Source: a virus
Length of the DNA: 64,000 bases
Strand: one strand, 5' to 3'
IMG/VR virus record: IMGVR_UViG_3300027791_000007
Location: 84,444-148,443 of that record
A model generated the notes under the pieces. It searched no databases. It saw only the letters and a list, made by a program, of their open reading frames with translations, and was not told the origin of the DNA. Position 1 is the stretch's first letter; each line of letters starts with the position of its first letter. Positions 1 to 15,101 of this stretch are shown one piece after another. The translations under genes and the position numbers were made by a program.

Positions 1-767
1 CTTGATTTGTGATTCTTACAGTGAATAATATTACCGACAACATCTGTACCTTCTTTATCTTTTCTTTTAGATAAGAAGATAATTGATGAGGCTGCATACT
101 TCAATCCAGAACCACCACCCATTTCCTTAGTAGGAAACATAGAACCCATAGAGTCATATGTGTGATTTGTTACAATCATTGGGATACCAGCTTTACCAAG
201 TTTCAAAGTCAACACTCTAAATGCAGCCTTAAGAACTTGTGCTCGTGTCATGTCTCTAGTTTCTTTTCCTGCTTCTGTATCCTCTACTTCCTTTGTAGTA
301 GATAACATACCAAGTGAATCTAAACACATCATCATAGGACGTTTTACATCCACATCTTGCTGAGAAAATCTATCTGCAATTTTAATCGCTTGTGTTCTAA
401 ACTCTTGTACAGTAGTAACTGGCATCATAACCATCCTAGTTGGGTCAATACCCCTATCAACTACCATCTGTTTAGTAATAGCACTTTCTGATTCAAAGTA
501 AACTACACCACCATCTGGATTTGCATCCAAAAAGTTCTTTACCATTCCCATCAAAAAGAATGTCTTACCAGTTGCACTTTCACCAGCAAGAGCAGTAATT
601 TTGTTTGCAGGCAATCCACCATACAAACTACCACTCAATAGTGCATTGAAAATGTAACTACCAGTATCTACAAAGTTTTCTACGTCACCAGCGGCAACAC
701 CATCGGATACTAAATCAGCATACTCATTTCCAGTTATTTTAATTATGTCTTTTAAAAAATCATTCAT
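1..767 (-). CDS. uvsX: UvsX RecA-like recombinase (runs off the left edge; missing from the ORF track)
   Basis: Manual translation from ATG at 767: [16 protein letters not shown]...[13 protein letters not shown]...[11 protein letters not shown] (Walker A)...LDSLGML...[12 protein letters not shown]. Confidence 0.95.
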
Positions 768-1140
768 AAATCACTCCTTCTAAATTAGGTTCTTCATAAT
801 TTGGGCCTTTCATGACCTTACCATCTTTTCGATACATGGGTTGACCATCTTCACCTAATTTTGTCATATTAGATCGTTGAACCTCATCAAAACATTTGTC
901 TAAGTCTAATCCAAATGTATGTCCAGCACCATAAACGACATATAAAATATCAGTTAATGCATCTGCCACATCTACAAGTGTACCACTTTCGCAAGCTTCT
1001 TCTAGTTCATTCAGTTCTTCTCGTATTAAATCAATCCTCAAATCCACTTCTTCATCTGTTGGCCATTGAGGATTTTCTCGTATTTTCTGCTTGAAAGCAG
1101 ACATAAAGTTTTCGACTTTGTTAAAGTTTGTTTGATTCAT
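760..1140 (-). CDS. MazG-like nucleotide pyrophosphohydrolase (DR2231-type dUTPase-like)
   Basis: EELNELEE...[11 protein letters not shown] acidic helices; SNMTK...[11 protein letters not shown]-terminal motif. Confidence 0.8.
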
Positions 1141-1146
1141 TTGTAG

Positions 1147-1175
1147 ATCCTATCATAATTAGCGTTGTTTGTCAA
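1147..1175 (-). promoter_or_regulatory. sigma70-type early promoter for the MazG-like gene and uvsX
   Basis: TTGACA (1175-1170), 17-nt spacer, TAGGAT (1152-1147). Confidence 0.7.
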
Positions 1176-1978
1176 GTAAAAAATTCACTTAATGTTGCAA
1201 CTCCGTGTTTGTCTGCAACTTTATTTACATTACTAGAGTTGTGGTTTGTTACAGTACCATCTATAAATGGTAGTGTCTTTGTGAGAGTATATTTTTCTTC
1301 GCCTGGTTTCTTTATTTTCCATTGTAAATCAACATCTTTGGGATAATTGATATTCCAATCCATAGTGGACTGTTTAAGATACTTCTTAGCCTTTTTATTT
1401 AGTGGGTAAATATATCTAAATTGTTTACCCCATACTCTACTAAATCCTAATTCACCCATCTTCTTATCACTTGGTCTTGGGCCATACTTAGTATCCATAC
1501 GATTCATTTCTTTTTTCATCTTTCTTTGGATAGTTCTGAAATGTACCTTTTCACCAGTTTCACTCAAATATATATCTGTCCAGATGAACCCACCAAATAA
1601 GAAGTTAGCGGCCTGATAAACATATCCTGGCTTACCAACAATTCCATCTGCCCATGTGTAAAGATATTTTATATTAGGTTTATTTTCTTTCAACCATTTA
1701 ATAGTTAAACTCTGCATTTGTGATTCTGAATTTCTGGGCATCTTATCATCCATACACATCTTACCTATTTCAAAATAATCAGCAGTTGTTAACTCTGGAA
1801 ACATCTTTCTTATTGTTCCCATAGGGTTCGTACCCCAACCCAAAGTTAGAACACCAACCAATTCTTCATCTACATATGTACCAAGATAATGTTTAGTTAG
1901 TTTGGGCATCACAGCACTATAGTGTCGTTCTTGAACGAATAGTGTTGCAACTCTCCAATCTATAGGTTTAATTATCAC
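1172..1978 (-). CDS. Mom-family (GNAT-fold) DNA base-modifying protein
   Basis: FVQERHYS...EIGKMC...PRNSES...YTWADGIVGKPGYVYQAANF matches the Mom-like HY / LxR / NxES / AD..G.xYQAxN pattern. Confidence 0.75.
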   Translation of the reverse strand: MIIKPIDWRVATLFVQERHYSAVMPKLTKHYLGTYVDEELVGVLTLGWGTNPMGTIRKMFPELTTADYFEIGKMCMDDKMPRNSESQMQSLTIKWLKENKPNIKYLYTWADGIVGKPGYVYQAANFLFGGFIWTDIYLSETGEKVHFRTIQRKMKKEMNRMDTKYGPRPSDKKMGELGFSRVWGKQFRYIYPLNKKAKKYLKQSTMDWNINYPKDVDLQWKIKKPGEEKYTLTKTLPFIDGTVTNHNSSNVNKVADKHGVATLSEFFT

Positions 1979-2418
1979 CCCTTATGTCTCCTCAAATAAG
2001 CGGCTCCCGCTTCTAAAACTTCTGGACGATCTAGTGAACGTCCTATCATAATATTACAATAGTCACAGATATATTCTCTTGGTGTTTCAGTTTCATGGTC
2101 ATGATCTAACACCCAAACAGTTTTTGATGTTGCAGACGATAATCCTTGAAATGCACCTCTACCTCTGATATATTCTTCATTGTCATTACAAATACCACAC
2201 TTATGATCCGACTCTGGTTTAGCTATTTCTTTTCTAACTTTATTAAGAATTTTTGTTTGGTGATTATTACACACTTTACAAATATTCTTAGTTTCTCTTG
2301 AACCATCTTTTCTGTGTCCTCTGTTTGCAAAGAGGTCTAAATGTTTTACCTCTTTACAAGAATAACACATCTTTGTATGCTCAACTTCTTCTGGGCCCCA
2401 TAATGTTTGAATAATCAT
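1975..2418 (-). CDS. Endonuclease VII-like His-Me finger nuclease with N-terminal Zn finger
   Basis: CYSC...CKVC, CGIC, LDHDHET...ICDYCNIMIG...AYL. Confidence 0.8.
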   Translation of the reverse strand: MIIQTLWGPEEVEHTKMCYSCKEVKHLDLFANRGHRKDGSRETKNICKVCNNHQTKILNKVRKEIAKPESDHKCGICNDNEEYIRGRGAFQGLSSATSKTVWVLDHDHETETPREYICDYCNIMIGRSLDRPEVLEAGAAYLRRHKG

Positions 2419-3182
2419 ATTGGTAACTTTCCAACTTGACTATCTGTATACATTTTCTTCCACTTGATTTTAATCTTCTTGAAATCTCCACCCATAACAT
2501 TCTCTTTAATGCCATTCCATGATACATGGTTAGGATACATCTCAATAAGTTTTGCATGAGTATCATTAATTAAATCTAAAGTTCTCCATTCGTTACATCC
2601 ACCCTCAACTAGAATCTTAGAAATATAACCAAACTCATCCCATATACGATTTGTATGTCCTTTTTCAAACAACTGTAATACCATATGAATATCTTCACAT
2701 ACTGGTAATGACCAATCTAGTTTTGTCTCATCAGGCATTTTATTACCATTGAAAAAGAAACCACAGTTTACAGCAGCGATATCAATAAATGGTTTTCCTG
2801 CTGGTGGTAGATTACCTTGACGAAAACCAGCGAAATCAACTTCATCTAACCATCGACTAGTTTCTGATAACATATAATCCCAATCCTTAGCGTCCATAAA
2901 TCTTTTAGATTTTTCTTTACCAGGCGTTCTACGAATGAATTTTAAGTCATCGTCAAACACTCCGTATTTGATATTCATAGATTTCATATATATCCAGCGC
3001 CTAGTCTCCGTGATCCCAATATCATCATCAGGCAAAACCATTATGGGATAATTTGGGTATAAATGTTTTTCCTTCGGTTGCACTACAAGAGTAGTAATAG
3101 ATTGTGTAGGGCCTGACAAATTATCAAAAGTAATTTGGTTGTGAGATCGGCCTAAGGTCGGTATATAAATCTGATCTATCAT
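2415..3182 (-). CDS. GT-A glycosyltransferase, TAGT/GREB1-like (T-even glucosyl-hmC glucosyltransferase family)
   Basis: IYIPTLGR, GITETRRWI, FDDDL (DxD), CEDIHMVLQL, GGCNEWR. Confidence 0.75.
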   Translation of the reverse strand: MIDQIYIPTLGRSHNQITFDNLSGPTQSITTLVVQPKEKHLYPNYPIMVLPDDDIGITETRRWIYMKSMNIKYGVFDDDLKFIRRTPGKEKSKRFMDAKDWDYMLSETSRWLDEVDFAGFRQGNLPPAGKPFIDIAAVNCGFFFNGNKMPDETKLDWSLPVCEDIHMVLQLFEKGHTNRIWDEFGYISKILVEGGCNEWRTLDLINDTHAKLIEMYPNHVSWNGIKENVMGGDFKKIKIKWKKMYTDSQVGKLPI

Positions 3183-4165
3183 ATCGCAGTGTCCATTCTA
3201 TTTGTAAATTCGTGATAGTAAGCGTCCAGAGATAACAATACTTGTTTGTAGTTGTTTCTATATTCTTCTAACTTACTGTTAAAGAAATCTTCATCTCTTA
3301 ATTGTAAAATCTTTTCTTCTAGTTCTTCAAACTCTTGTACTCGTTGCCATTCATCAATTCTGTATGTATTATTCTTATCATAGTCTCTCCATACAAATGG
3401 CACCATTCCAATTGAAAGTGCTTCTGGATACCTACTAGTTGTGGCATATGGGTCAATCCAGTTAAAACAAAGTGTACTTCTTGCTGGTTCTAACATTGGA
3501 TATAATTGTTTCCAATCTTTAATCCATGCGGCTTGTCGTTTTACCCCACTAGGAAAACCACCCACCATTACAGTAGATAGTTGTGAACGATAGATTTTAC
3601 GAATTGTTTTCTCTCTATCGTTACCATGTTTCATACGACCCCAGTAGGCCCAATCAACAGTTTTACCTTCACTCATCATATCATAAAGAGGATTTTTTAA
3701 AGTCTGAATAAAATGATATTTCATACCGTGGATATTTCCACTAAAATCTATTTCATCTATCGTAGTAAATCTTGTAATTGTAGTACCCTTTAAAGTATGC
3801 ACTCTATACAACTCTTCTGTGTCACCCCTATCTGAACGAAACATAATCACCTTTTTATCTCTAAAGAACGGGCGAATAGTTTCCATATGACTTTCAGACT
3901 TTGCAAGGTCTTTTGGATTCATCTGTAACTCACCATGATACCTAAACTCTGAATCACTAGGTATGACAATTACATCGGCCCACTCAATATTCTCTGGTGT
4001 TCGTTTGGGTCTACTTTCATCAAACGATACGTTATATGTTCTGTATTCATGTTGTGGGTTTGCTTTCATCCACTTGACATAGTTTTCAAAGAAACTATCT
4101 AGGACAGTTTCTAATGGGCCATTATACTTTACGTTACTTCGTAATCTTGCAATTGTTATTTTCAT
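3179..4165 (-). CDS. T4 beta-glucosyltransferase-like GT-B DNA glycosyltransferase
   Basis: MKITI start; YWGRMKHGNDREK resembles BGT YGGSFRSGQRE; TSRYPEAL...FVWRDYDKN resembles BGT TLRVWETM...IDEEFDTK; similar length. Confidence 0.65.
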   Translation of the reverse strand: MKITIARLRSNVKYNGPLETVLDSFFENYVKWMKANPQHEYRTYNVSFDESRPKRTPENIEWADVIVIPSDSEFRYHGELQMNPKDLAKSESHMETIRPFFRDKKVIMFRSDRGDTEELYRVHTLKGTTITRFTTIDEIDFSGNIHGMKYHFIQTLKNPLYDMMSEGKTVDWAYWGRMKHGNDREKTIRKIYRSQLSTVMVGGFPSGVKRQAAWIKDWKQLYPMLEPARSTLCFNWIDPYATTSRYPEALSIGMVPFVWRDYDKNNTYRIDEWQRVQEFEELEEKILQLRDEDFFNSKLEEYRNNYKQVLLSLDAYYHEFTNRMDTAI

Positions 4166-5376
4166 TACATATCTTCTAAAGAGTTTTTGATCTTATATTC
4201 TAATGAAATCACCTCTACATTAAAACCCTTAGGCGCAATCCAAAACTCAATGTCATCCATCACCTTAGGCAACCACTTCTTGTTCCACTCTTGCATGGTC
4301 TTCCAATTGGGATGGGTGATGTAAATAGTTGCATACTTCTTCTTTGACTTTGCCTTTACAAGTAACTTTAACTCATCTTGTAACGAATGTAAGTTAAACT
4401 TTCCAGATGAAGCGTGCATTGAAATTGAATCCTTATCAGTAGCATTTTCAAGAATAGTAGCTAATTCAGACTTGTATAGTGACCACTTCTTCCAAATCCA
4501 ACCATCAGGCAACTTATCATTTAGAGTAATCGTTGTCTGTGCCTTATTGATAATCCAGTTGATTTGTCTTGTGCTCCAATTCATATCTTCCAAGTATTTA
4601 ATATTATCTGTTGAGTCGGCCGGAACACCTTTCTTATTAAATGCAGCAACAATCCATGCTACTTGGTCGTCTGGATGACCAACCTTTGTAGCCTTTTTCT
4701 GCTGAGGATTTAACAGATTAGCAAGAATTTGTAACTGTGTGACATCAAACTGATTCCAAATCTTCTTTGAGATATACATAACTGGCACCTTAATTACATG
4801 AGAAACCCTCTTTGCGGCCGCAGTAGTGTGATTACCATCAAGAATGATATCATCACCATTCTTTCCATATCCCTTTAATACAATAATTGGATCAAAACTA
4901 TCAATCTTTCCATGTAAGTCAATCATAGCATCTGCAAGAACTCCAACATGATTAGTGTCAGTATTTTCTACCCTTGTCTGATACCTCGCAAGTTCAGTAA
5001 TTATTGACTTCTCAATCAACTCAATAGGTAATTCCTTAGTCTTAATCATTTGAGATAATTCCCTCAATTCTAAATTCTTACCTACTGTCTTGAGGTACTT
5101 ACCACCACCATTTGACTTGTTGTAGTATTCTTCATTGTTGTTCGCATCTACTTCTAATAACATATTTCTCTCCAATGTCGCCATATTAATTTTAGTTCCT
5201 TGTTTCACAATCTTGTATTCATTATCACCCTCAGCAAAATCTTCCATGAAAATAGGACACTTACTTGAATGAATATAATTAGAAATAGTTTCTCCTTTTT
5301 TTAAAACATGATAACCAATATACTTCTTTCCAGTTCCATTAACTGTGATTTCGTAAACATAAGCTTCTTGATTCAT
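4165..5376 (-). CDS. GIY-YIG-like N-terminal domain fused to a ParB/Srx-like domain
   Basis: AYVYEI...KKYIGYH...YIHSS...ERNML...YYNKS (Seg-like GIY-YIG); PIIV...ILDGNHT (ParB-like). Confidence 0.6.
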   Translation of the reverse strand: MNQEAYVYEITVNGTGKKYIGYHVLKKGETISNYIHSSKCPIFMEDFAEGDNEYKIVKQGTKINMATLERNMLLEVDANNNEEYYNKSNGGGKYLKTVGKNLELRELSQMIKTKELPIELIEKSIITELARYQTRVENTDTNHVGVLADAMIDLHGKIDSFDPIIVLKGYGKNGDDIILDGNHTTAAAKRVSHVIKVPVMYISKKIWNQFDVTQLQILANLLNPQQKKATKVGHPDDQVAWIVAAFNKKGVPADSTDNIKYLEDMNWSTRQINWIINKAQTTITLNDKLPDGWIWKKWSLYKSELATILENATDKDSISMHASSGKFNLHSLQDELKLLVKAKSKKKYATIYITHPNWKTMQEWNKKWLPKVMDDIEFWIAPKGFNVEVISLEYKIKNSLEDM

Positions 5377-5408
5377 ATTTTTTCTTTCTCTTGATTGTTT
5401 ATACTAAT

Positions 5409-5437
5409 AGTATAACAGCCAAAAGTGCATTTGTCAA
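5409..5437 (-). promoter_or_regulatory. sigma70-type early promoter heading the DNA-modification operon
   Basis: TTGACA (5437-5432), 17 nt, extended TGT-TATACT (5414-5409). Confidence 0.8.
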
Positions 5438-5510
5438 GTAGGGCAAAAATCTCCAGTAAAAACAAAGACTTAAATTTAACGTAAAATTTGTGTTTTAGCA
5501 CAACTGCGAA

Positions 5511-6623
5511 TCACCTTATTATATCAATCTTATCCATAGTATCTTTATTCCAGACTTCAAGTTCTTTTCTTAACTTGTCCTCTCTAATCATTTTAGTGTA
5601 TCTTTTAGTAGAAAGCTTCTTCCACCACTGTACTACATTTTCAAGTTCAAATCTATCATAGTTTTCTGCTTTTGTCAAGGTATTTGTTTCACCTAGTAAA
5701 ACATTTCTTGCATTTTCATATCCATATGTTGACATATAAAATCTTTTCTGTGTGGTCACTTCTCCTGCTTTATTCATTGCATCTGTAAATAACTGATAGG
5801 CCTTTGAGTCATGTTGTTTTAATGATGCCTTAACCGTTCCCACCATCTTGGTCTGCATCTTTAACTTTCTTGAACTTGCACCTTTATGTATTAGGTCTTC
5901 ACCACCGTTTCTTTCAGTAAACCAATCTCTCATCTCCATATAGATTTCTTCTCCAAGTGTCAATAGAAACTTAGATTGAGTATCACCTTTGTATCTTAGA
6001 TATGGGCGCATACCATCATACATACTACCACCTTTGATATTACCATAAAGACTTGTAGTTTCAAATAGACAGAACTTTGTATTATACTTCTTATTCAACA
6101 TACGTCTAGTTGCATGAGAACAACAAATAGCTGCAAGTAACTTACCACCAAGATAATTATACCCAAATGGTTGTGCAGGCACAATATTAAATCCCATGAT
6201 AGCACGTTTGTTAAAGATATCTAAATCTGGAACACCACCAAGAAAATCATTTCTAGGTTTAGAGTTAATTAGTGGACTACCATAACGTATAAATCCTACA
6301 ATAGTATTTGTAGTTGTTTCCTTAACAACTAGTTTCAAAGTCTTGCCTGGGTTTTCATCTGGACTGAATGATGCAGTCTTTTCTAATAGTGTATCATATA
6401 CCTTGTTTGGTATTTCTACAACTTGAAAGTTCATATCCTCTGGATGCATATCAAAGTCTTGAAACAAATCATCTTCAATTGACATGCCAGGCAGTGGTGA
6501 CGGAATATCTTTAACTCTTTCAATCTTTCTTACACGAAAGTAATCATCAATGCGATTAAAATCTTTGAAGTATTTCATCAATTTTGTAGCAGCGTATATT
6601 GAGTCTTGTCTGTCTAGTATCAT
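5511..6623 (-). CDS. DUF4338 (DruA-like) protein of T4-like marine phages
   Basis: PAQPFGYNYLGGKLLA, FETTSLYG, YDG motifs; overlaps the gp43 stop codon. Confidence 0.7.
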   Translation of the reverse strand: MILDRQDSIYAATKLMKYFKDFNRIDDYFRVRKIERVKDIPSPLPGMSIEDDLFQDFDMHPEDMNFQVVEIPNKVYDTLLEKTASFSPDENPGKTLKLVVKETTTNTIVGFIRYGSPLINSKPRNDFLGGVPDLDIFNKRAIMGFNIVPAQPFGYNYLGGKLLAAICCSHATRRMLNKKYNTKFCLFETTSLYGNIKGGSMYDGMRPYLRYKGDTQSKFLLTLGEEIYMEMRDWFTERNGGEDLIHKGASSRKLKMQTKMVGTVKASLKQHDSKAYQLFTDAMNKAGEVTTQKRFYMSTYGYENARNVLLGETNTLTKAENYDRFELENVVQWWKKLSTKRYTKMIREDKLRKELEVWNKDTMDKIDIIR

Positions 6624-9106
6624 AGAAAATCCATTAAGTTACCTTGTTGGCCATATGTGCGATCCACTGTCCATTTAAGTTTGGACACAATAAAGTTTAG
6701 TGGTTCAACAAATGACTTTTCAAATTGTTGTTCATAATCAATCATACTCTGTAATCCAAACTCATCAGGCATTTTTGTAATGAATGAAATAGAACTTGAT
6801 TGGTGAGCATTTGGTATTCGTAAGTGCAAGAATTTAATCTTATCCCCTTCTTGAATGTATGGGTATTTGTTTACTAGTTTCTTTTGTTTGAGAAGATGGT
6901 TGTATAGAATTGCTCCCTTACAATGAATAGGGGCTCCTTTAGCAAATAGGGAACTAGGATCACTCCATTTCGTCAAACCGTTTACACTTCTAGGATATGC
7001 AATCATCTCTGCTGGCATGTTCATAAACTCTTCTCTAAAGTCTCGTATAAACTTATTTAGCATTTTCTCATCACCACTCATGATGATTTTCAAACCTTCT
7101 TTAATTTTGTTTCTACAAGGTTCTGGCGTAGAAGATTTTACTGCTTCAATACCCATAATCTTTAGTTTAGGTTCTTGATAACGAACACCCTCATTATCCC
7201 ACACATTAAGAATATATCGTTTCTTAGCAGTCCATATACCCTTGTCAGCGATGACTTCTCTTGACATCTCCATCTTCTGTTGGTATGCTTTCATGTAAGT
7301 AGCGAGTTCTTCATAACATGAACTGATATATGGTTCTATCTTATCCTTTGCAATGCTGTCTAGAAAATCAATTGGACTAGATGGATTAAACTTTTCTACC
7401 AAAGAACCGAATGTAACATAGATGGAATCTGTATCAGAAGCAACCACATAATCTTGATTATCAGTTTTGAGTAAATTGTTCATATAACTATTAATCTTGT
7501 TTTCAATCCAACGAATAGATAATTGTCCAGAAGTTGTAACAGCCTCTGCCATTGCAAGGGAGTAGTATCTGAAATACTGATTACCGATAGCACCATAAGC
7601 ACTGTTCAATGCAATCTTTCTTGCCATCTGAATATTATCATACTTAGAAATCTTTTTAAGTAGTTTTGGTTCTTTGGTATCTTCATATTCTTGTTTTGCC
7701 TGTAACATCTTCTTCTTGAATACGACACGATCATTGTACATGTTTTCCATCAACTCTGGAAGAAAACCTTTTGTATCTGTTCTGAACAATGCACCGTTTG
7801 GTGTCATAGTGGTATCTTTGAAAATAGATGTATCAACTTCCTTGTTTAGAAGTTTGTCCACCTTCATACCTTTTACCGTATCCAGAGATTTTAATGTTTC
7901 TGGGGAAATATTATATTGCATCATTAAGTGTGGATACAAAGAGTTCAAGTCAAAAGACATAATCCATTTATGTTCACCGACTATAGGGTCTTTGACATAT
8001 GCACCCTCAAACTTCTCTGCCTTTTCTGAATGACGTTTCTGTGGAATTACAATATTCTTTTTCTTTAGATAATTGTAAATCAGAACATCCCAATATTTAA
8101 CCGAACCAAGAACATCCATGTAATTAACTTTGGCTTCATATGCCATAGTCAAACACAATTCAATAAGTCTCATCTTATCTTCAATACGATCAACTAGTTC
8201 CACATCAAGAATGTTATAGTCAATAAAAGATTGAAAGTCTTTTGTATACCACTCACTGAAAGTTTCATATGGATTTGTATCTTTCTTTTGTCCAAGTTCT
8301 ACATATGCGATATGAGTAAGTGCATATGACTCTTGACTTGTGTATGTAAACTTGTGATATAAGTCCAAGTAATCCAAGTGAGCAACACCTCTAATATCGT
8401 AGAGTTGATGATTCCTACCATTTCTGAAAACTTCTTTATCTTGAACCATACGCCATGGTGATAATCTTTTTAGTTCATCCTCACCAAACAAGTTCTTCAT
8501 ACGATTACATAGATAAGGAATATCAAAAAATTCTGTATTCCAACCAGTGATAATATCTGGTGGGCTGTTTTCCCAAAAGATAAGAAACTCTTTAAGTAAA
8601 TGTATTTCACTCTCACATTCAATGTAAGTTACATCGTCACGACTATTAGTATATTTACCAACACCCCAAACAATAATTTGTTTGTTAGAATGGTTCTTTA
8701 AAGTAATTGATAGAAAAGGTTCTGCAGCCTCTTGTGGATTAGGAAACCCATTCTCACATTTAACCTCAATGTCAATAGTGTATATTAGAATCTGATCTAA
8801 ATCCCAATTGACATCATTAGGATATTCTTCTGAAAGATAAGTATATGGATATTGGTTTAACCCCAATACCAACGATTTTTGATTCTCGTATGATTTTTGC
8901 CACTCTTTCGCATCTTTGATATTATCAAATTTGATTGGGGCAGCATTCTTGCCAGTAAGAGTTTTGAAACCGCTTACCTTTTCGCAGGGCGTGTACAAAG
9001 TTGGTTGGTATTTAACCTTACGAACTTGTCGTTTGCCGTTTACAACTTCTCTTAGAAAAAGTTGGTTTCCCCACTGTAAAATATTTGTGTAAAAGTTTAT
9101 CATCAT
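6620..9106 (-). CDS. gp43: Family B DNA polymerase gp43
   Basis: DIEV exonuclease motif, SFDLNSLYPH, KIALNSAYG, SDTDS, KKRY; C-terminal clamp-binding NLMDFL. Confidence 0.98.
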   Translation of the reverse strand: MMINFYTNILQWGNQLFLREVVNGKRQVRKVKYQPTLYTPCEKVSGFKTLTGKNAAPIKFDNIKDAKEWQKSYENQKSLVLGLNQYPYTYLSEEYPNDVNWDLDQILIYTIDIEVKCENGFPNPQEAAEPFLSITLKNHSNKQIIVWGVGKYTNSRDDVTYIECESEIHLLKEFLIFWENSPPDIITGWNTEFFDIPYLCNRMKNLFGEDELKRLSPWRMVQDKEVFRNGRNHQLYDIRGVAHLDYLDLYHKFTYTSQESYALTHIAYVELGQKKDTNPYETFSEWYTKDFQSFIDYNILDVELVDRIEDKMRLIELCLTMAYEAKVNYMDVLGSVKYWDVLIYNYLKKKNIVIPQKRHSEKAEKFEGAYVKDPIVGEHKWIMSFDLNSLYPHLMMQYNISPETLKSLDTVKGMKVDKLLNKEVDTSIFKDTTMTPNGALFRTDTKGFLPELMENMYNDRVVFKKKMLQAKQEYEDTKEPKLLKKISKYDNIQMARKIALNSAYGAIGNQYFRYYSLAMAEAVTTSGQLSIRWIENKINSYMNNLLKTDNQDYVVASDTDSIYVTFGSLVEKFNPSSPIDFLDSIAKDKIEPYISSCYEELATYMKAYQQKMEMSREVIADKGIWTAKKRYILNVWDNEGVRYQEPKLKIMGIEAVKSSTPEPCRNKIKEGLKIIMSGDEKMLNKFIRDFREEFMNMPAEMIAYPRSVNGLTKWSDPSSLFAKGAPIHCKGAILYNHLLKQKKLVNKYPYIQEGDKIKFLHLRIPNAHQSSSISFITKMPDEFGLQSMIDYEQQFEKSFVEPLNFIVSKLKWTVDRTYGQQGNLMDFL

Positions 9107-14132: not shown

Positions 14133-15101
14133 CTAAGACCTCCGTAGTGTTTTAATATATTTTGATTGATCTTCTGGACTAGTGATACCCAATTTCTTTA
14201 ATGTAAGTTTATCAACTACATTAATATTTGCAGAAAATGTTCTACGTTCACCTTCACCAAAAAATGGCATTACGGAATGTCTTAACCAATTAGGGAATAT
14301 ATACATAGCCCCAACTTCTGGTTTAACATATTCGTCTGTAGCAGGTCTAAGAATCTTAGTATCTGCCCTTCCATTATTACCCCATGAGAAATAAGTGAAA
14401 CCATCAACACCACCAGAATTATTATTCAAGTTGACTTGATCTCCACTAACCTTTTTCTCAATCGCCTCTGGAACTTTTAGATACAGAATACACGACAACC
14501 CATAAGGTGTAGCAACACCGTGGTCGTGTAAAGGATTATAATCTCCAGAGTAACTATGAACTGACCATGCTTCAAATGTATCTACTTCTGCATCAACTTC
14601 ATGTCCATTCTTTAAATAAGTTCTTGCACACTGGTCGATAATAGTTTTTACTTGTGATGGTATAGAAAGAGTCTCTGGTGTTTCTGGTTCATGAGTAATT
14701 GGAAAGACAAGTTGTGCTGATTTATTATCTTGTTTGATTTGTCCTACAAGTCCACCGGCCAAACTATTGTTTGCAGTTGTATTACCAGCAGTTTCACCAA
14801 ATGATTCGTCTTGTGTTACAATAGTTTCATCAATGTATCTATTAATTTCAGTTATAGCATCAACTGGAATTTCTACTCGCATCATATGTAGTGCAAGTTT
14901 AGTTTTCATAGAAATTCTTAAACCAGAATTTTTCTGTGTATGTTCTTCATCAGCATCAGCCATAGCCTGTCCATCTTCAATTGCTTTTTCAGCATCTGTT
15001 TTAGGAATTGGTTCGTTTGAAGTCCAATGATTTTTGTCTGTTTTTGCGACACCACCGTCTTTGAATTGGTCTGGTGCAACATCAAATGTTTTTAAACCCA
15101 T
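14133..15101 (-). CDS. 2OG-Fe(II) oxygenase-like protein (TIGR02466-like) with N-terminal extension
   Basis: GDYNPLHDH, LSCILYL, IFPNWLRHSVMPF, RRTFSAN. Confidence 0.8.
   Translation of the reverse strand: MGLKTFDVAPDQFKDGGVAKTDKNHWTSNEPIPKTDAEKAIEDGQAMADADEEHTQKNSGLRISMKTKLALHMMRVEIPVDAITEINRYIDETIVTQDESFGETAGNTTANNSLAGGLVGQIKQDNKSAQLVFPITHEPETPETLSIPSQVKTIIDQCARTYLKNGHEVDAEVDTFEAWSVHSYSGDYNPLHDHGVATPYGLSCILYLKVPEAIEKKVSGDQVNLNNNSGGVDGFTYFSWGNNGRADTKILRPATDEYVKPEVGAMYIFPNWLRHSVMPFFGEGERRTFSANINVVDKLTLKKLGITSPEDQSKYIKTLRRS

What the first reader, a model, noticed from the sequence alone, without database searches (positions are those of the whole stretch)
1172..5472. Five-gene operon pairing three DNA-modifying enzymes with two nucleases: candidate phage modification-restriction system
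Seen: one sigma70 promoter (5437-5409, with an IHF-like site upstream) precedes five ORFs joined by start/stop overlaps (TAATG at 4165; 4-nt overlaps at 3179-82, 2415-18, 1975-78). The order is GIY-YIG/ParB, BGT-like GT-B, TAGT-like GT-A, Endo VII-like nuclease, Mom-like GNAT. A separate promoter then starts the MazG-like gene and uvsX. Known: T4 BGT glucosylates 5-hmC, TAGT-family enzymes add sugars to modified bases, and Mu Mom modifies adenine. Inference: the phage may build a disaccharide or acylated-sugar base, or modify both C and A, while the co-transcribed nucleases cut unmodified host or competitor DNA. I am not aware of this combination being described as a unit.
Basis: partly seen in the sequence, partly recalled or inferred. 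Interest (0 to 1): 0.85.

Follow-up and report, generated by a model that had tools for sequence, protein, structure and literature searches.

The report
Mosaic DNA-modification island in marine phage
In an uncultured ocean T4-like phage, the slot where T4 keeps its DNA-glucosylation genes holds two sugar-adding enzymes, a Mom-type adenine modifier and two nuclease genes that look self-inserting; these are separate modules rather than one modification-restriction machine, and the sugar enzymes lack the usual hydroxymethyl base to act on.

Summary
Five minus-strand ORFs with 1- and 4-nt overlaps follow the best sigma70-like site in the region. All five domain calls are confirmed: GIY-YIG+ParB/Srx, a GT-B whose nearest solved structure is T4 BGT, TAGT, Endonuclease VII and Mom.

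- TAGT is present in about a third of loci. EndoVII and Mom occur only in this narrow lineage.
- Both nuclease genes are precise insertions relative to close relatives. The GIY-YIG-ParB gene brought the promoter with it.

The island sits between gp43 and uvsX, where T4 has 42, b-gt and segA.

No ThyA-type hydroxymethylase turned up in the phage or four relatives; the TET/JBP search of the phage's own record was uninformative. The sugar acceptor is therefore unknown.

Most likely the BGT-like enzyme and TAGT glycosylate DNA, perhaps on the product of the DruA-type enzyme. Mom modifies adenine independently, and the nucleases are homing-type passengers.

Other agents of this scan reached similar readings on other genomes.

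The parts
6620..9106 (-). gp43 DNA polymerase. It forms the upstream boundary of the variable slot, and its stop overlaps the start of the DruA-like gene.
   Evidence: PF00136/PF03104 and phrog_262, E = 0; ORF coordinates.
5511..6623 (-). DruA-family (DUF4338, GNAT-type) gene. It is a conserved replication-module gene, the recurrent neighbour of the BGT-like gene, and occupies the position of T4 gene 42.
   Evidence: phrog_19197, E 6e-155. PF14236 hits 31 of 31 family members, best E 2.6e-9; the window protein itself scores 22 bits, under the 27-bit cut-off. Orthologues follow gp43 or the clamp loader in HTVC008M and about 20 cyanomyophages. DUF4338 is called a GNAT domain in PMC10853773.
5377..5510 (-). 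Spacer that entered with the ORF1 cassette. It holds the sigma70-like promoter at 5437-5409.
   Evidence: Relatives without ORF1 have the DruA stop overlapping the ORF2 start (ATGA), with no spacer. Promoter scan scores 11/12.
4165..5376 (-). ORF1: a GIY-YIG nuclease domain (about residues 1-95), a ParB/Srx-like domain with a helical DNA-binding part (about 113-288) and an unassigned C-terminal domain (about 295-400). It is a freestanding, position-variable, homing-endonuclease-like gene.
   Evidence: AF2 model, pLDDT 95. I-TevI catalytic domain: Z 7.3, rmsd 2.7, 78 aligned. KorB/PadC/Srx: Z 8.2-8.6. ParB/Noc by Foldseek: E 4e-6. Invariant Y8, Y19, G21, Y34, E69, N86, Q133 and R135 in 77 homologues. 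Variable insertion sites and presence/absence.
3179..4165 (-). ORF2: a compact GT-B glycosyltransferase. Its nearest solved structure is T4 DNA beta-glucosyltransferase, and its position matches T4 b-gt.
   Evidence: AF2 model, pLDDT 92. Foldseek top 12 hits are all T4 AGT/BGT. VIA: BGT Z 18.3 (294 aligned) against AGT 15.6 and generic GT-B 15.3 or less. Atlas features point to PF09198 clusters at 0.96-0.97. No Pfam hit. T4 map.
2415..3182 (-). ORF3: a TAGT-family GT-A glycosyltransferase with a DDD motif at residues 77-79. It is a candidate second-sugar transferase and is accessory.
   Evidence: PF20691, 56.4 bits against a cut-off of 27.5. phrog_842 'beta-glucosyl-HMC-alpha-glucosyltransferase', E 1.2e-20. 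Present in 20 of 58 loci with enough flank. Absent from G001, G002, G003 and HTVC008M.
1975..2418 (-). ORF4: an Endonuclease VII / HNH-type (beta-beta-alpha-Me) nuclease with N-terminal CxxC pairs. It is a precise insertion between TAGT and Mom.
   Evidence: PF02945, E 8.5e-11. PADLOC REase_II, E 4e-10. L027 has TAGT abutting Mom without it; the insertion captured Mom's ATG. Homologues at 90% identity or more occur only in 5 loci of this lineage, and the next best is 36%. Absent from G001-G003 and HTVC008M.
1172..1978 (-). ORF5: a Mom-family GNAT (DNA adenine N6 aminoacyl-type modifier) and an independent module.
   Evidence: PF25680, E 7.7e-51. The family profile hits Mu Mom 8bv8 at E 6e-26. 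Residue mapping. 79.5% identical homologue in Melnitz phages in an unrelated context.
1147..1175 (-). Second sigma70-like site, ahead of the MazG-like gene.
   Evidence: TTGACA-17-TAGGAT, 10/12 with TG.
760..1140 (-). MazG/PRA-PH-like nucleotide pyrophosphohydrolase. It is the last gene of the extra block before uvsX.
   Evidence: PF01503, E 2e-22; phrog_671, E 2e-41. It travels with Mom in L009, L027, L103 and L104.
3..767 (-). uvsX (partial in the window). It forms the downstream boundary of the slot.
   Evidence: phrog_97, E 2e-83.

Best explanation
The stretch is a mosaic island in the variable slot between gp43 (with its DruA-like neighbour) and uvsX of an uncultured marine T4-like myophage, of the HTVC008M/Kyanoviridae type. 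T4 itself carries gene 42, b-gt and the GIY-YIG homing gene segA in this slot. The island holds three kinds of cargo that have separate evolutionary histories.

(1) A glycosylation pair. ORF2 is a BGT-like GT-B that most likely puts a first sugar from a nucleotide-sugar onto a modified base in phage DNA. ORF3 (TAGT) extends that sugar to a disaccharide, as the second glucosyltransferase of T2/T6 does. The phage and its relatives have no dCMP/dUMP hydroxymethylase, so the acceptor is not made the T4 way. The best candidate for the enzyme that supplies or partners the acceptor is the DruA-family GNAT-type enzyme that recurrently abuts ORF2.

(2) ORF5, a Mom homologue. It most likely modifies adenine N6 post-replicatively and independently of the sugars.

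(3) ORF1 (GIY-YIG-ParB) and ORF4 (EndoVII/HNH). These are freestanding nuclease genes that behave like homing endonuclease genes inserted between the other genes. They do not behave like the restriction arm of a system.

Shown here: the folds and families, the synteny, the indel structure and the absence of a ThyA-type hydroxymethylase. Inferred: DNA as the target of the two glycosyltransferases, the link to the DruA-type enzyme, and the selfish nature of the nucleases.
For: Identities.
- ORF2: the model's top structural matches are T4 BGT (Z 18.3, 294 of 351 residues aligned) and AGT, about 3 Z units above other GT-B enzymes.
- ORF3: TAGT scores above the Pfam cut-off and matches the PHROG named for the T-even second glucosyltransferase.
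- ORF5: homologous to Mu Mom, 8bv8 at E 6e-26.
- ORF1: I-TevI-like N-domain plus ParB/Srx domain.

Position.
- T4 has 43, imm, 42, b-gt, segA, uvsX.
- HTVC008M has gp43, DruA-like, a small ORF, uvsX. The block at window 760-5510 is therefore extra DNA in that slot.

Linkage of ORF2 with DruA-family genes in two separate contexts.
- In 57 of 67 loci with enough flank, a DruA-like gene lies directly upstream of ORF2, and in several the stop and start overlap.
- In the HTVC008M-type clade (ORF2 37-40% identical) the order is gp46, pdf, ORF2, then sometimes a JmjC or 2OG oxygenase, then a second DruA paralogue.

Modularity.
- TAGT is in 20 of 58 loci. EndoVII is in 3 and Mom in 3.
- Mom stands alone after gp43 in other T4-like contigs and in Melnitz.

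Indels.
- ORF1 plus its promoter sits exactly between the DruA stop and the ORF2 start here. A 45%-identical homologue with its own TTGACA promoter sits after ORF2 in L009.
- ORF4 is inserted in frame at the TAGT/Mom junction that is intact in L027.
- ORF4 has no close relatives outside this lineage. Its cultured-phage relatives are scattered podoviruses and siphoviruses, some in or beside DNA polymerase genes.

Relatives fill the same slot with sugar-nucleotide enzymes, a GT1, an FkbM methyltransferase and a DNA N6/N4 methylase. This fits a diversifying modification island.
Against: - No acceptor pathway was found. PF00303 is absent from the phage (84% complete), from a 95%-complete relative, from two other relatives and from HTVC008M. 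The Tet_JBP search of the phage's own record found nothing, but nothing rang in that search's control genomes either, so it does not show absence.
- ORF2 has no sequence-level match to PF09198 or to any PDB chain. GT-B fold similarity does not fix the acceptor.
- A published analysis of pelagimyophages reads their glycosyltransferases as host-surface modifiers (PMC7029224). The sugar-nucleotide genes in relatives' cassettes fit that reading as well.
- DruA-like orthologues occur in about 20 cultured cyanomyophages that have no ORF2. Part of the DruA/ORF2 adjacency therefore simply reflects the insertion hot spot next to gp43.
- hhalign found no DruA/Mom similarity.
- ORF1 homologues as diverged as 26-33% identity still sit inside this island, between ORF2 and TAGT or sugar genes. 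That could mean a functional tie rather than pure selfishness.
- The marine Mom clade has K for R111 and I/L for R151, residues reported as essential in Mu Mom (PMC13219725). Its chemistry may therefore differ.
Confidence: 0.55

Rival explanations
1. One reading: one co-transcribed modification-restriction system. The three modifying enzymes mark phage DNA, and the two nucleases destroy unmarked host or competitor DNA, much as T4 EndoII/EndoIV degrade cytosine DNA.
For: - All five genes are tightly packed behind one strong promoter-like site.
- T4 EndoII is, from established knowledge, a GIY-YIG enzyme that attacks unmodified host DNA.
- A ParB/DUF262-like domain joined to a nuclease is the architecture of type IV enzymes such as GmrSD. 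The atlas lead to GmrSD_N+GIY-YIG viral clusters scored only 0.77.
- ORF1's N-domain also resembles the 5hmC-specific GIY-YIG nuclease PD-T4-3, Z 5.8.
- ORF4 matches a PADLOC type II REase model at E 4e-10.
- ORF1-family genes recur inside this island even at 26-33% identity.
Against: - The genes do not co-occur. The full set is found only in L003 (the same phage) and L009 out of 79 loci.
- G001 (95% complete) and HTVC008M keep ORF2 but have no ORF1, TAGT, EndoVII or Mom.
- Both nuclease genes are clean indels with their own promoter or a captured start codon.
- ORF1 changes position: before ORF2 here, after it in most loci, and 11 kb away in G002.
- An ORF1-like gene exists in Melnitz phages, which lack ORF2.
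- T4 has a GIY-YIG homing gene (segA) at the very same spot.
Confidence: 0.12
2. The two glycosyltransferases do not act on DNA. They modify host surface polysaccharide, a protein or a small molecule, and their place in the replication module is an accident of an insertion hot spot.
For: - No hydroxymethyl-pyrimidine pathway was found.
- Relatives carry GT1, UDP-glucose dehydrogenase, epimerase/dehydratase, cytidylyltransferase and FkbM methyltransferase genes in the same slot. These are typical of polysaccharide synthesis.
- The pelagimyophage literature favours O-chain modification (PMC7029224).
- Many GT-B enzymes score Z 14-15 against the ORF2 model.
Against: - The nearest structures to ORF2 are the two T4 DNA glucosyltransferases, over the full length and ahead of all others.
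- The compact 328-aa size is like BGT's 351 aa.
- TAGT is a family defined by DNA-modification contexts, and ORF3 scores above its cut-off.
- The gene occupies the same map position as T4 b-gt. In relatives it is translationally coupled to gp43 and the DruA-like gene.
- DNA methylase and Mom genes share the slot.
Confidence: 0.2
3. ORF4 is simply the phage's gp49-type Holliday-junction resolvase for recombination and packaging, and ORF1 is a ParB-like DNA-handling protein. Both would be ordinary replication-module genes with no link to modification and no mobility.
For: ORF4 matches the Endonuclease_7 family and the endonuclease VII PHROGs over its full length. It lies in the replication/recombination module beside uvsX.
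Against: - PF02945 and the ORF1 family are absent from the 95%-complete relative and from complete HTVC008M. They are therefore not core functions.
- No T4-like phage is among ORF4's cultured-phage relatives.
- Both genes show a precise indel structure.
- GIY-YIG motif residues are invariant in ORF1's family, which argues for a working nuclease.
Confidence: 0.08

Closest known systems
T4 region 43 - imm - 42 (dCMP hydroxymethylase) - b-gt - segA - uvsX
   Same: The map slot between DNA polymerase and uvsX is the same. It holds a BGT-type GT-B and a freestanding GIY-YIG endonuclease gene beside it. ORF2's best structural match is T4 BGT.
   Different: There is no gene 42 or any ThyA-family enzyme; a DruA-family GNAT-type gene stands in that place. 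ORF2 has no sequence match to PF09198. The GIY-YIG protein carries a ParB/Srx domain that Seg proteins are not known to have. The extra cargo is TAGT, EndoVII, Mom and MazG.
T2/T6 two-step glucosylation (first GT plus beta-glucosyl-HMC-alpha-glucosyltransferase), and the TAGT family of TET/JBP-associated GT-A enzymes
   Same: A GT-B is followed by a TAGT-family GT-A with a DxD motif. ORF3 matches PF20691 above the cut-off and the PHROG named for the T-even second transferase.
   Different: No hmC supply was found, and no TET/JBP partner turned up in an uninformative search. TAGT is dispensable in most relatives that keep ORF2. Sugar and acceptor are unknown.
Phage Mu Mom (Gly-tRNA-dependent N6-adenine modifier; PDB 8bv8; PMC13219725)
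   Same: Clear homology (E 6e-26). Equivalents of H58, Y59, S124, D149 and Y159 are conserved.
   Different: R111 is K and R151 is I/L in all 30 marine homologues aligned. There is a C-terminal extension of about 60 aa. The gene sits in a T4-like lytic phage rather than at the end of a Mu-like genome. A 79.5%-identical copy is present in the cultured Melnitz phages but is not annotated as Mom there.
GIY-YIG homing endonucleases (I-TevI, T4 Seg proteins)
   Same: The N-terminal fold matches the I-TevI catalytic domain (Z 7.3, 78 of 92 residues aligned). Tyr, Gly, Glu and Asn motif residues are invariant. The gene is freestanding, has its own promoter, and shows presence/absence and variable sites between conserved genes.
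   Different: The DNA-binding part is a ParB/Srx-like domain plus an unassigned C-terminal domain. The canonical catalytic Arg was not identified. Homing was not demonstrated. Diverged family members stay within the same island.
Type IV restriction enzymes of ParB/DUF262 + nuclease architecture (GmrSD, SspE, BrxU) and T4 EndoII (GIY-YIG)
   Same: A ParB/Srx-superfamily domain with QxR and DG(N/Q)H-type motifs is joined to a nuclease domain.
   Different: The domain order and the nuclease type differ. There is no Pfam DUF262/GmrSD_N match. The gene is encoded by a phage. The atlas lead scored only 0.77.
Druantia type I DruA (PF14236, DUF4338)
   Same: The neighbouring gene at 5511-6623 and its 30 aligned relatives all match PF14236. 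The HTVC008M paralogue scores 65.6 bits against a cut-off of 27.
   Different: The gene is phage-encoded and lies in the replication module, with no DruB-E. The window protein itself is below the cut-off at 22 bits. No function is known for either protein.

Membership tests
T4 beta-glucosyltransferase family (PF09198, GT63) | Sequence match to the family model | tested here: not met
   No Pfam family at E <= 0.1 for ORF2. The family profile of 56 sequences finds no PDB chain at E <= 10.
T4 beta-glucosyltransferase family (PF09198, GT63) | Compact two-domain GT-B fold closest to BGT | tested here: met
   BGT: Z 18.3, rmsd 4.1, 294 aligned over residues 1-326. AGT scores 15.6 and the next GT-B 15.3. 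The Foldseek top 12 are all AGT/BGT.
T4 beta-glucosyltransferase family (PF09198, GT63) | UDP-binding Arg/Glu of the C-terminal domain (BGT R269/E272, recalled from the BGT structure papers) | tested here: inconclusive
   hhalign places invariant R245 and E248 of ORF2 on BGT R269 and E272, but at E 0.037 and probability 1.4%.
T4 beta-glucosyltransferase family (PF09198, GT63) | Supply of 5-hydroxymethylcytosine by a gp42-type hydroxymethylase | tested here: not met
   PF00303 is absent from G000, G001 (95% complete), G002, G003 and HTVC008M. Controls ring in 10 of 14 genomes.
T4 beta-glucosyltransferase family (PF09198, GT63) | Transfer of glucose to DNA | not testable with these tools
   Needs biochemistry or nucleoside mass spectrometry.
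TAGT (PF20691) | Match above the curated cut-off, and a GT-A DxD motif | tested here: met
   56.4 bits against 27.5, covering 2-200 of 205 profile positions. DDD at residues 77-79 in the translation.
TAGT (PF20691) | Association with a TET/JBP dioxygenase | tested here: inconclusive
   No PF12851 match in the phage's own record, but nothing rang in the control genomes either, so absence is not proven.
Mom (PF25680) | Homology to Mu Mom over the GNAT core | tested here: met
   173 bits against 27.1. 8bv8_A at E 2e-19 for the single sequence and 6e-26 for the profile.
Mom (PF25680) | Residues reported as needed for Mu Mom activity (H58, Y59, R111, S124, D149, R151, Y159; PMC13219725) | tested here: not met
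   H, Y, D and Y are kept in 30 of 30 homologues and S124 is S/T. R111 is K in 30 of 30 and R151 is I/L in 30 of 30. The paper reports R111K as drastically reduced and R151A as inactive in Mu Mom.
Endonuclease VII (PF02945) / T4 gp49 | Family match | tested here: met
   42.1 bits against 23.6. phrog_2633 covered in full length, E 7e-18.
Endonuclease VII (PF02945) / T4 gp49 | Conserved core resolvase of the phage group | tested here: not met
   Absent from G001, G002, G003 and HTVC008M. Homologues at 90% identity or more occur only in five loci of this lineage.
GIY-YIG homing endonucleases (I-TevI/Seg) | GIY-YIG fold and motif residues | tested here: inconclusive
   I-TevI: Z 7.3, which is in the range that can be a common arrangement. 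Invariant Y8, Y19, G21, E69 and N86, but no invariant Arg. Only sub-threshold Pfam hits: SegE_GIY-YIG in 7 and GIY-YIG in 3 of 77 members.
GIY-YIG homing endonucleases (I-TevI/Seg) | Freestanding gene that is present or absent between conserved genes, with its own expression signals | tested here: met
   Junction comparison; positions; genome counts.
GIY-YIG homing endonucleases (I-TevI/Seg) | Cleavage of the empty allele and gene conversion | not testable with these tools
   Needs nuclease and co-infection assays.
ParB/Srx superfamily | N-domain fold | tested here: met
   ParB, Noc and KorB by Foldseek at E 4e-6 to 1e-3. KorB, PadC and Srx at Z 8.2-8.6 over residues 113-283.
ParB/Srx superfamily | GERR-type CTP-binding motif of ParB | tested here: not met
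   The corresponding stretch reads DGNHT, and only G181 is nearly invariant.
Restriction-modification unit (modification genes with a cognate nuclease inherited together) | Co-occurrence of the modifying genes and the nucleases across relatives | tested here: not met
DruA (PF14236) | Family match for the neighbouring gene at 5511-6623 | tested here: inconclusive
   The window protein scores 22 bits, under the 27-bit cut-off. All 31 aligned relatives hit the family, best E 2.6e-9. The HTVC008M paralogue scores 65.6 bits. PADLOC DruA1, E 4e-4.

The most novel reading that the evidence does not exclude
Abundant ocean T4-like phages make a sugar-bearing DNA base by a route that needs no hydroxymethyl pyrimidine. 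A DruA-family (DUF4338) GNAT-type enzyme, possibly working like Mom with an activated acyl or aminoacyl donor, first decorates a base. In some clades a JmjC or 2OG oxygenase helps. The BGT-like GT-B then glycosylates that group, and TAGT or other cassette enzymes extend or vary the sugar. This would also give the first biochemical role for the DruA family of Druantia.
Probability: 0.22. Interest if true: 0.85.

Novelty: new variant of a known kind. Interest (0 to 1): 0.6.

Why it matters
The BGT-like family has no Pfam model, yet the searches returned 918 and 757 protein clusters for its two clades in marine metagenomes. It sits in phages related to those of SAR11 and marine cyanobacteria.

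If it glycosylates DNA without a hydroxymethylase, there is an undescribed DNA base in some of the most numerous viruses in the sea. That would have consequences for sequencing bias, for restriction evasion and for enzyme discovery.

The recurrent pairing with a DruA-family gene offers a handle on a defence-system protein of unknown function.

The marine Mom clade, with its changed key residues, is a ready test of how Mom's newly found tRNA-dependent chemistry varies.

The negative result also matters. Tight packing behind one promoter did not mean one system here. Two of the five genes are insertions.

Tried and rejected
- DruA-like gene as a direct Mom relative. BLASTP and hhalign of the two family profiles gave nothing significant: probability 0.4%, and only a 12-column overlap at the 'vGxxxxG' strand. 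I keep only 'GNAT-type', on the word of PMC10853773, and note the 'methylcarbamoylase mom' annotation of the S-SCSM2R orthologue.
- Complex prediction of the DruA-like protein with ORF2. The answer was no verdict: score 0.01 against a mark of 0.32. It is not used either way.
- PDB sequence and profile searches for ORF1, ORF2 and the DruA-like family found nothing useful.
- PADLOC found no defence-system model for ORF1, ORF2, ORF3 or ORF5.
- The HTVC008M JmjC-like gp105 has no homologue in this phage. The small genes that sit between DruA and ORF2 in some relatives (c79, c91, c34) have no Pfam family.
- The IHF-like site is at chance level.
- The weak second 'Mom' hit at G000:33399-33572 (E 0.004, two TAG stops) is treated as noise.
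- Three literature searches using the word 'Mom' returned mostly irrelevant papers. The 2013 Iyer et al. paper on DNA-modification systems is not held.
- The C-terminal domain of ORF1 (about residues 295-400) got only Z 5-6 matches, so it remains unassigned.

Full report
WHAT THE WINDOW IS. The window is the last 64 kb of a 148-kb IMG/VR virus record that CheckV rates 84% complete. DNA-level matches are only to cyanomyophage core genes at 70-79% identity. Protein-level relatives are Pelagibacter phage HTVC008M, the OM43 phage Melnitz and marine cyanomyophages. It is therefore an uncultured marine T4-like myophage.

THE OBSERVATION. The five minus-strand ORFs lie at the stated coordinates. The junctions read TAATG, ATGA, ATGA and GTGA.
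- The site at 5437-5409 (TTGACA-17-TATACT with TG) is the best sigma70-like match in the region. A second site sits ahead of the MazG-like gene.
- Promoter-like sites as a class are not enriched over shuffles.
- The IHF-like site is at chance level.

WHAT EACH GENE IS.
- ORF3, ORF4 and ORF5 pass the Pfam cut-offs for TAGT, Endonuclease_7 and Mom. PHROGs agree and name ORF3's family after the T-even beta-glucosyl-HMC-alpha-glucosyltransferase.
- ORF5's family profile finds the Mu Mom crystal structure 8bv8 at E 6e-26.
- ORF1 and ORF2 have no Pfam family, so both were folded from alignments of homologues.
- ORF1 was modelled from 77 diverse homologues taken from a search of 1.8 billion representatives, with pLDDT 95. 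Residues 4-88 superpose on the I-TevI catalytic domain (Z 7.3). Residues about 113-283 superpose on KorB, PadC and sulfiredoxin (Z 8.2-8.6) and on ParB and Noc by Foldseek. The GIY-YIG motif residues Y8, Y19, G21, E69 and N86 are invariant, as is a QxR pair. The ParB GERR motif reads DGNHT.
- ORF2 was modelled at pLDDT 92. Its best match is T4 beta-glucosyltransferase over the full length (Z 18.3), then T4 AGT (15.6), then ordinary GT-B enzymes. Language-model features point the same way.

IS IT A UNIT? I fetched 80 IMG/VR loci through ORF2 and mapped the window's genes on them.
- The recurrent neighbour of ORF2 is none of the other four genes. It is the gene just outside the finding, at 5511-6623. 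This gene is directly upstream of ORF2 in 57 of 67 loci with enough flank.
- Of 58 loci with at least 2.5 kb downstream, 18 have an ORF1 homologue, 20 have TAGT, 3 have EndoVII and 3 have Mom.
- All of them together occur only in L003 (the same phage, 99-100% identical) and in L009. In L009 the ORF1 homologue is only 45% identical and lies after ORF2, not before it.
- Whole-record searches agree. A 95%-complete relative (G001) and the complete HTVC008M genome have ORF2 but no ORF1-family gene, TAGT, EndoVII or Mom.
- Mom homologues are very common in marine metagenomes (1698 hits) but in other contexts. Some sit directly after gp43 beside a DNA methylase. Others sit among small early genes, and in cultured Melnitz phages a 79.5%-identical copy stands far from any glycosyltransferase.

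THE TWO NUCLEASE GENES ARE INSERTIONS.
- In L007, L020, L033 and L038 the stop of the upstream gene overlaps the ATG of ORF2. In the window, a 134-bp spacer carrying the promoter plus ORF1 lies exactly there.
- In L009 an ORF1 homologue with its own TTGACA promoter lies after ORF2.
- In L027 TAGT abuts Mom. In the window ORF4 is inserted in frame just after Mom's original ATGATTAT, which leaves Mom with a GTG start.
- ORF4 has homologues at 90% identity or more in only five loci of this lineage, and the next best is 36%. Its relatives in cultured phages are unrelated podoviruses and siphoviruses, some in or beside DNA polymerase genes.
- This is how homing endonuclease genes behave. It is not how the conserved arm of a restriction system behaves.

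THE SLOT.
- HTVC008M has gp43, the orthologue of 5511-6623 (54% identical), a small ORF, then uvsX. The block at window 760-5510 is therefore extra DNA between two conserved genes.
- T4 has, in the same slot, imm, gene 42 (dCMP hydroxymethylase), b-gt and the GIY-YIG homing gene segA. ORF2 thus matches T4 b-gt by position as well as by structure, and a GIY-YIG gene beside it has a direct precedent.
- Relatives fill the slot with other cargo: a GT1, an FkbM methyltransferase, UDP-glucose dehydrogenase, an epimerase/dehydratase, a cytidylyltransferase, an N6/N4 DNA methylase and an IMPDH/GMP-reductase-like gene.

THE NEIGHBOUR AT 5511-6623.
- All 31 aligned family members match Pfam DruA (DUF4338). 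The window protein itself is under the cut-off.
- One paper calls DUF4338 a GNAT domain (PMC10853773). The orthologue in Synechococcus phage S-SCSM2R is annotated 'methylcarbamoylase mom' on structural grounds (PMC12801897). The Phold preprint notes DruA-like proteins in six Synechococcus phages.
- My own profile comparison of this family with Mom was negative.
- The gene occurs in about 20 cultured cyanomyophages that have no ORF2. Part of its adjacency to ORF2 therefore just reflects the hot spot.
- However, in the HTVC008M-type clade ORF2 (37-40% identical) lies elsewhere, after gp47, gp46 and a peptide deformylase. There it is followed by a second DruA paralogue, sometimes with a JmjC-like or 2OG-Fe(II) oxygenase between them.
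- Two different contexts with the same pairing argue for a functional link.

THE MISSING SUBSTRATE. No ThyA-family hydroxymethylase is present in the phage, in three relatives' records or in HTVC008M. The Tet_JBP model found nothing in the phage, but nothing rang in that search's controls either. The T4 route to a glycosyl acceptor is therefore absent, and what ORF2 glycosylates is open.

MOM DETAILS. Residues were mapped onto Mu Mom through the 8bv8 alignment, using residue roles from PMC13219725. The marine clade keeps H58, Y59, D149 and Y159, and has S or T at S124. It has K for R111 and I or L for R151 in all 30 sequences. It is a clear family member but may differ in donor or efficiency.

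VERDICT. The 'five-gene modification-restriction system' is not supported by its own test.
- What is there is a mosaic island with three kinds of cargo: a probable DNA glycosylation pair (ORF2 with accessory TAGT) tied to a DruA-type enzyme, an independent Mom module, and two homing-type nuclease genes.
- The interesting residue is the hydroxymethylase-free BGT-like/DruA pairing.
- Notes from other agents of this scan report the same pairing on other genomes. I checked only the part that I could reach through my own loci.
- The DNA target, the role of the DruA-type enzyme and the selfish nature of the nucleases are inferences. Mass spectrometry of HTVC008M DNA and nuclease assays on the empty junctions would settle them.

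Noticed in passing
window 5511-6623 (-): A DruA/DUF4338-family gene whose start overlaps the gp43 stop. Orthologues (42-54% identical) sit in the replication module of HTVC008M and about 20 cultured cyanomyophages, mostly annotated 'putative cytoplasmic protein' and in S-SCSM2R 'methylcarbamoylase mom'. It is a conserved phage homologue of a Druantia defence protein, and its function is unknown.
   Followed up: partly
L001:8001-10711 (HTVC008M gp104-gp106); L099 and L101 5001-7270: In the HTVC008M-type clade the BGT-like gene lies after gp47, gp46 and a peptide deformylase. It is followed by a second DruA paralogue. A JmjC/cupin-like gene (HTVC008M) lies between them; in L100 a 2OG-Fe(II) oxygenase follows the BGT-like gene, but no DruA paralogue was found there.
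   Followed up: partly
window 1172-1978 (-); alignment A4: All 30 marine Mom homologues aligned have Lys at the Mu Mom R111 position and Ile or Leu at R151. Both residues are reported as essential in Mu Mom. The other key residues are kept.
   Followed up: yes
L092:5998-6807 (Melnitz EXVC044M gene 129): The cultured OM43 phage Melnitz carries a 79.5%-identical Mom homologue annotated 'protein of unknown function DUF465'. This looks like a mis-annotation.
   Followed up: no
L083-L085 6001-6780: In cyanophage-like 140-164 kb contigs a Mom homologue overlaps the gp43 stop, which is the position the DruA-like gene has here. A 156-aa ORF, an N6/N4 DNA methylase and a radical-SAM/SPASM pair follow it before uvsX.
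   Followed up: no
L046/L047/L050 (genes c47-c48-c49); L080:1215-1610; L056:3053-3685; L014:10608-11780: Relatives carry other genes in the same slot: UDP-glucose dehydrogenase, NAD-dependent epimerase/dehydratase, a cytidylyltransferase placed between DruA and the BGT-like gene, an FkbM methyltransferase and an IMPDH/GMP-reductase-like gene. This suggests that the sugar or the base chemistry varies between closely related phages.
   Followed up: partly
window 1975-2418 (-): The EndoVII-like ORF also matches a PADLOC 'REase_II' model at E 4e-10. Its cultured-phage relatives include genes lying in or next to the DNA polymerase genes of cyanopodoviruses SS120-1 and S-CBP2.
   Followed up: partly
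window about 14226-14840 (G000:98669-99283): A homologue (25% identical, E 6e-9) of the HTVC008M 2OG-Fe(II) oxygenase gp102 lies about 9 kb from the island. It is the nearest candidate hydroxylase, but it is not linked to the island.
   Followed up: no
window 4165-4491 (-), ORF1 residues about 295-400: The C-terminal alpha/beta domain of the GIY-YIG-ParB protein is confidently modelled but has only weak structural matches (Z 5-6, for example CdiI-type immunity proteins). It is unassigned.
   Followed up: partly
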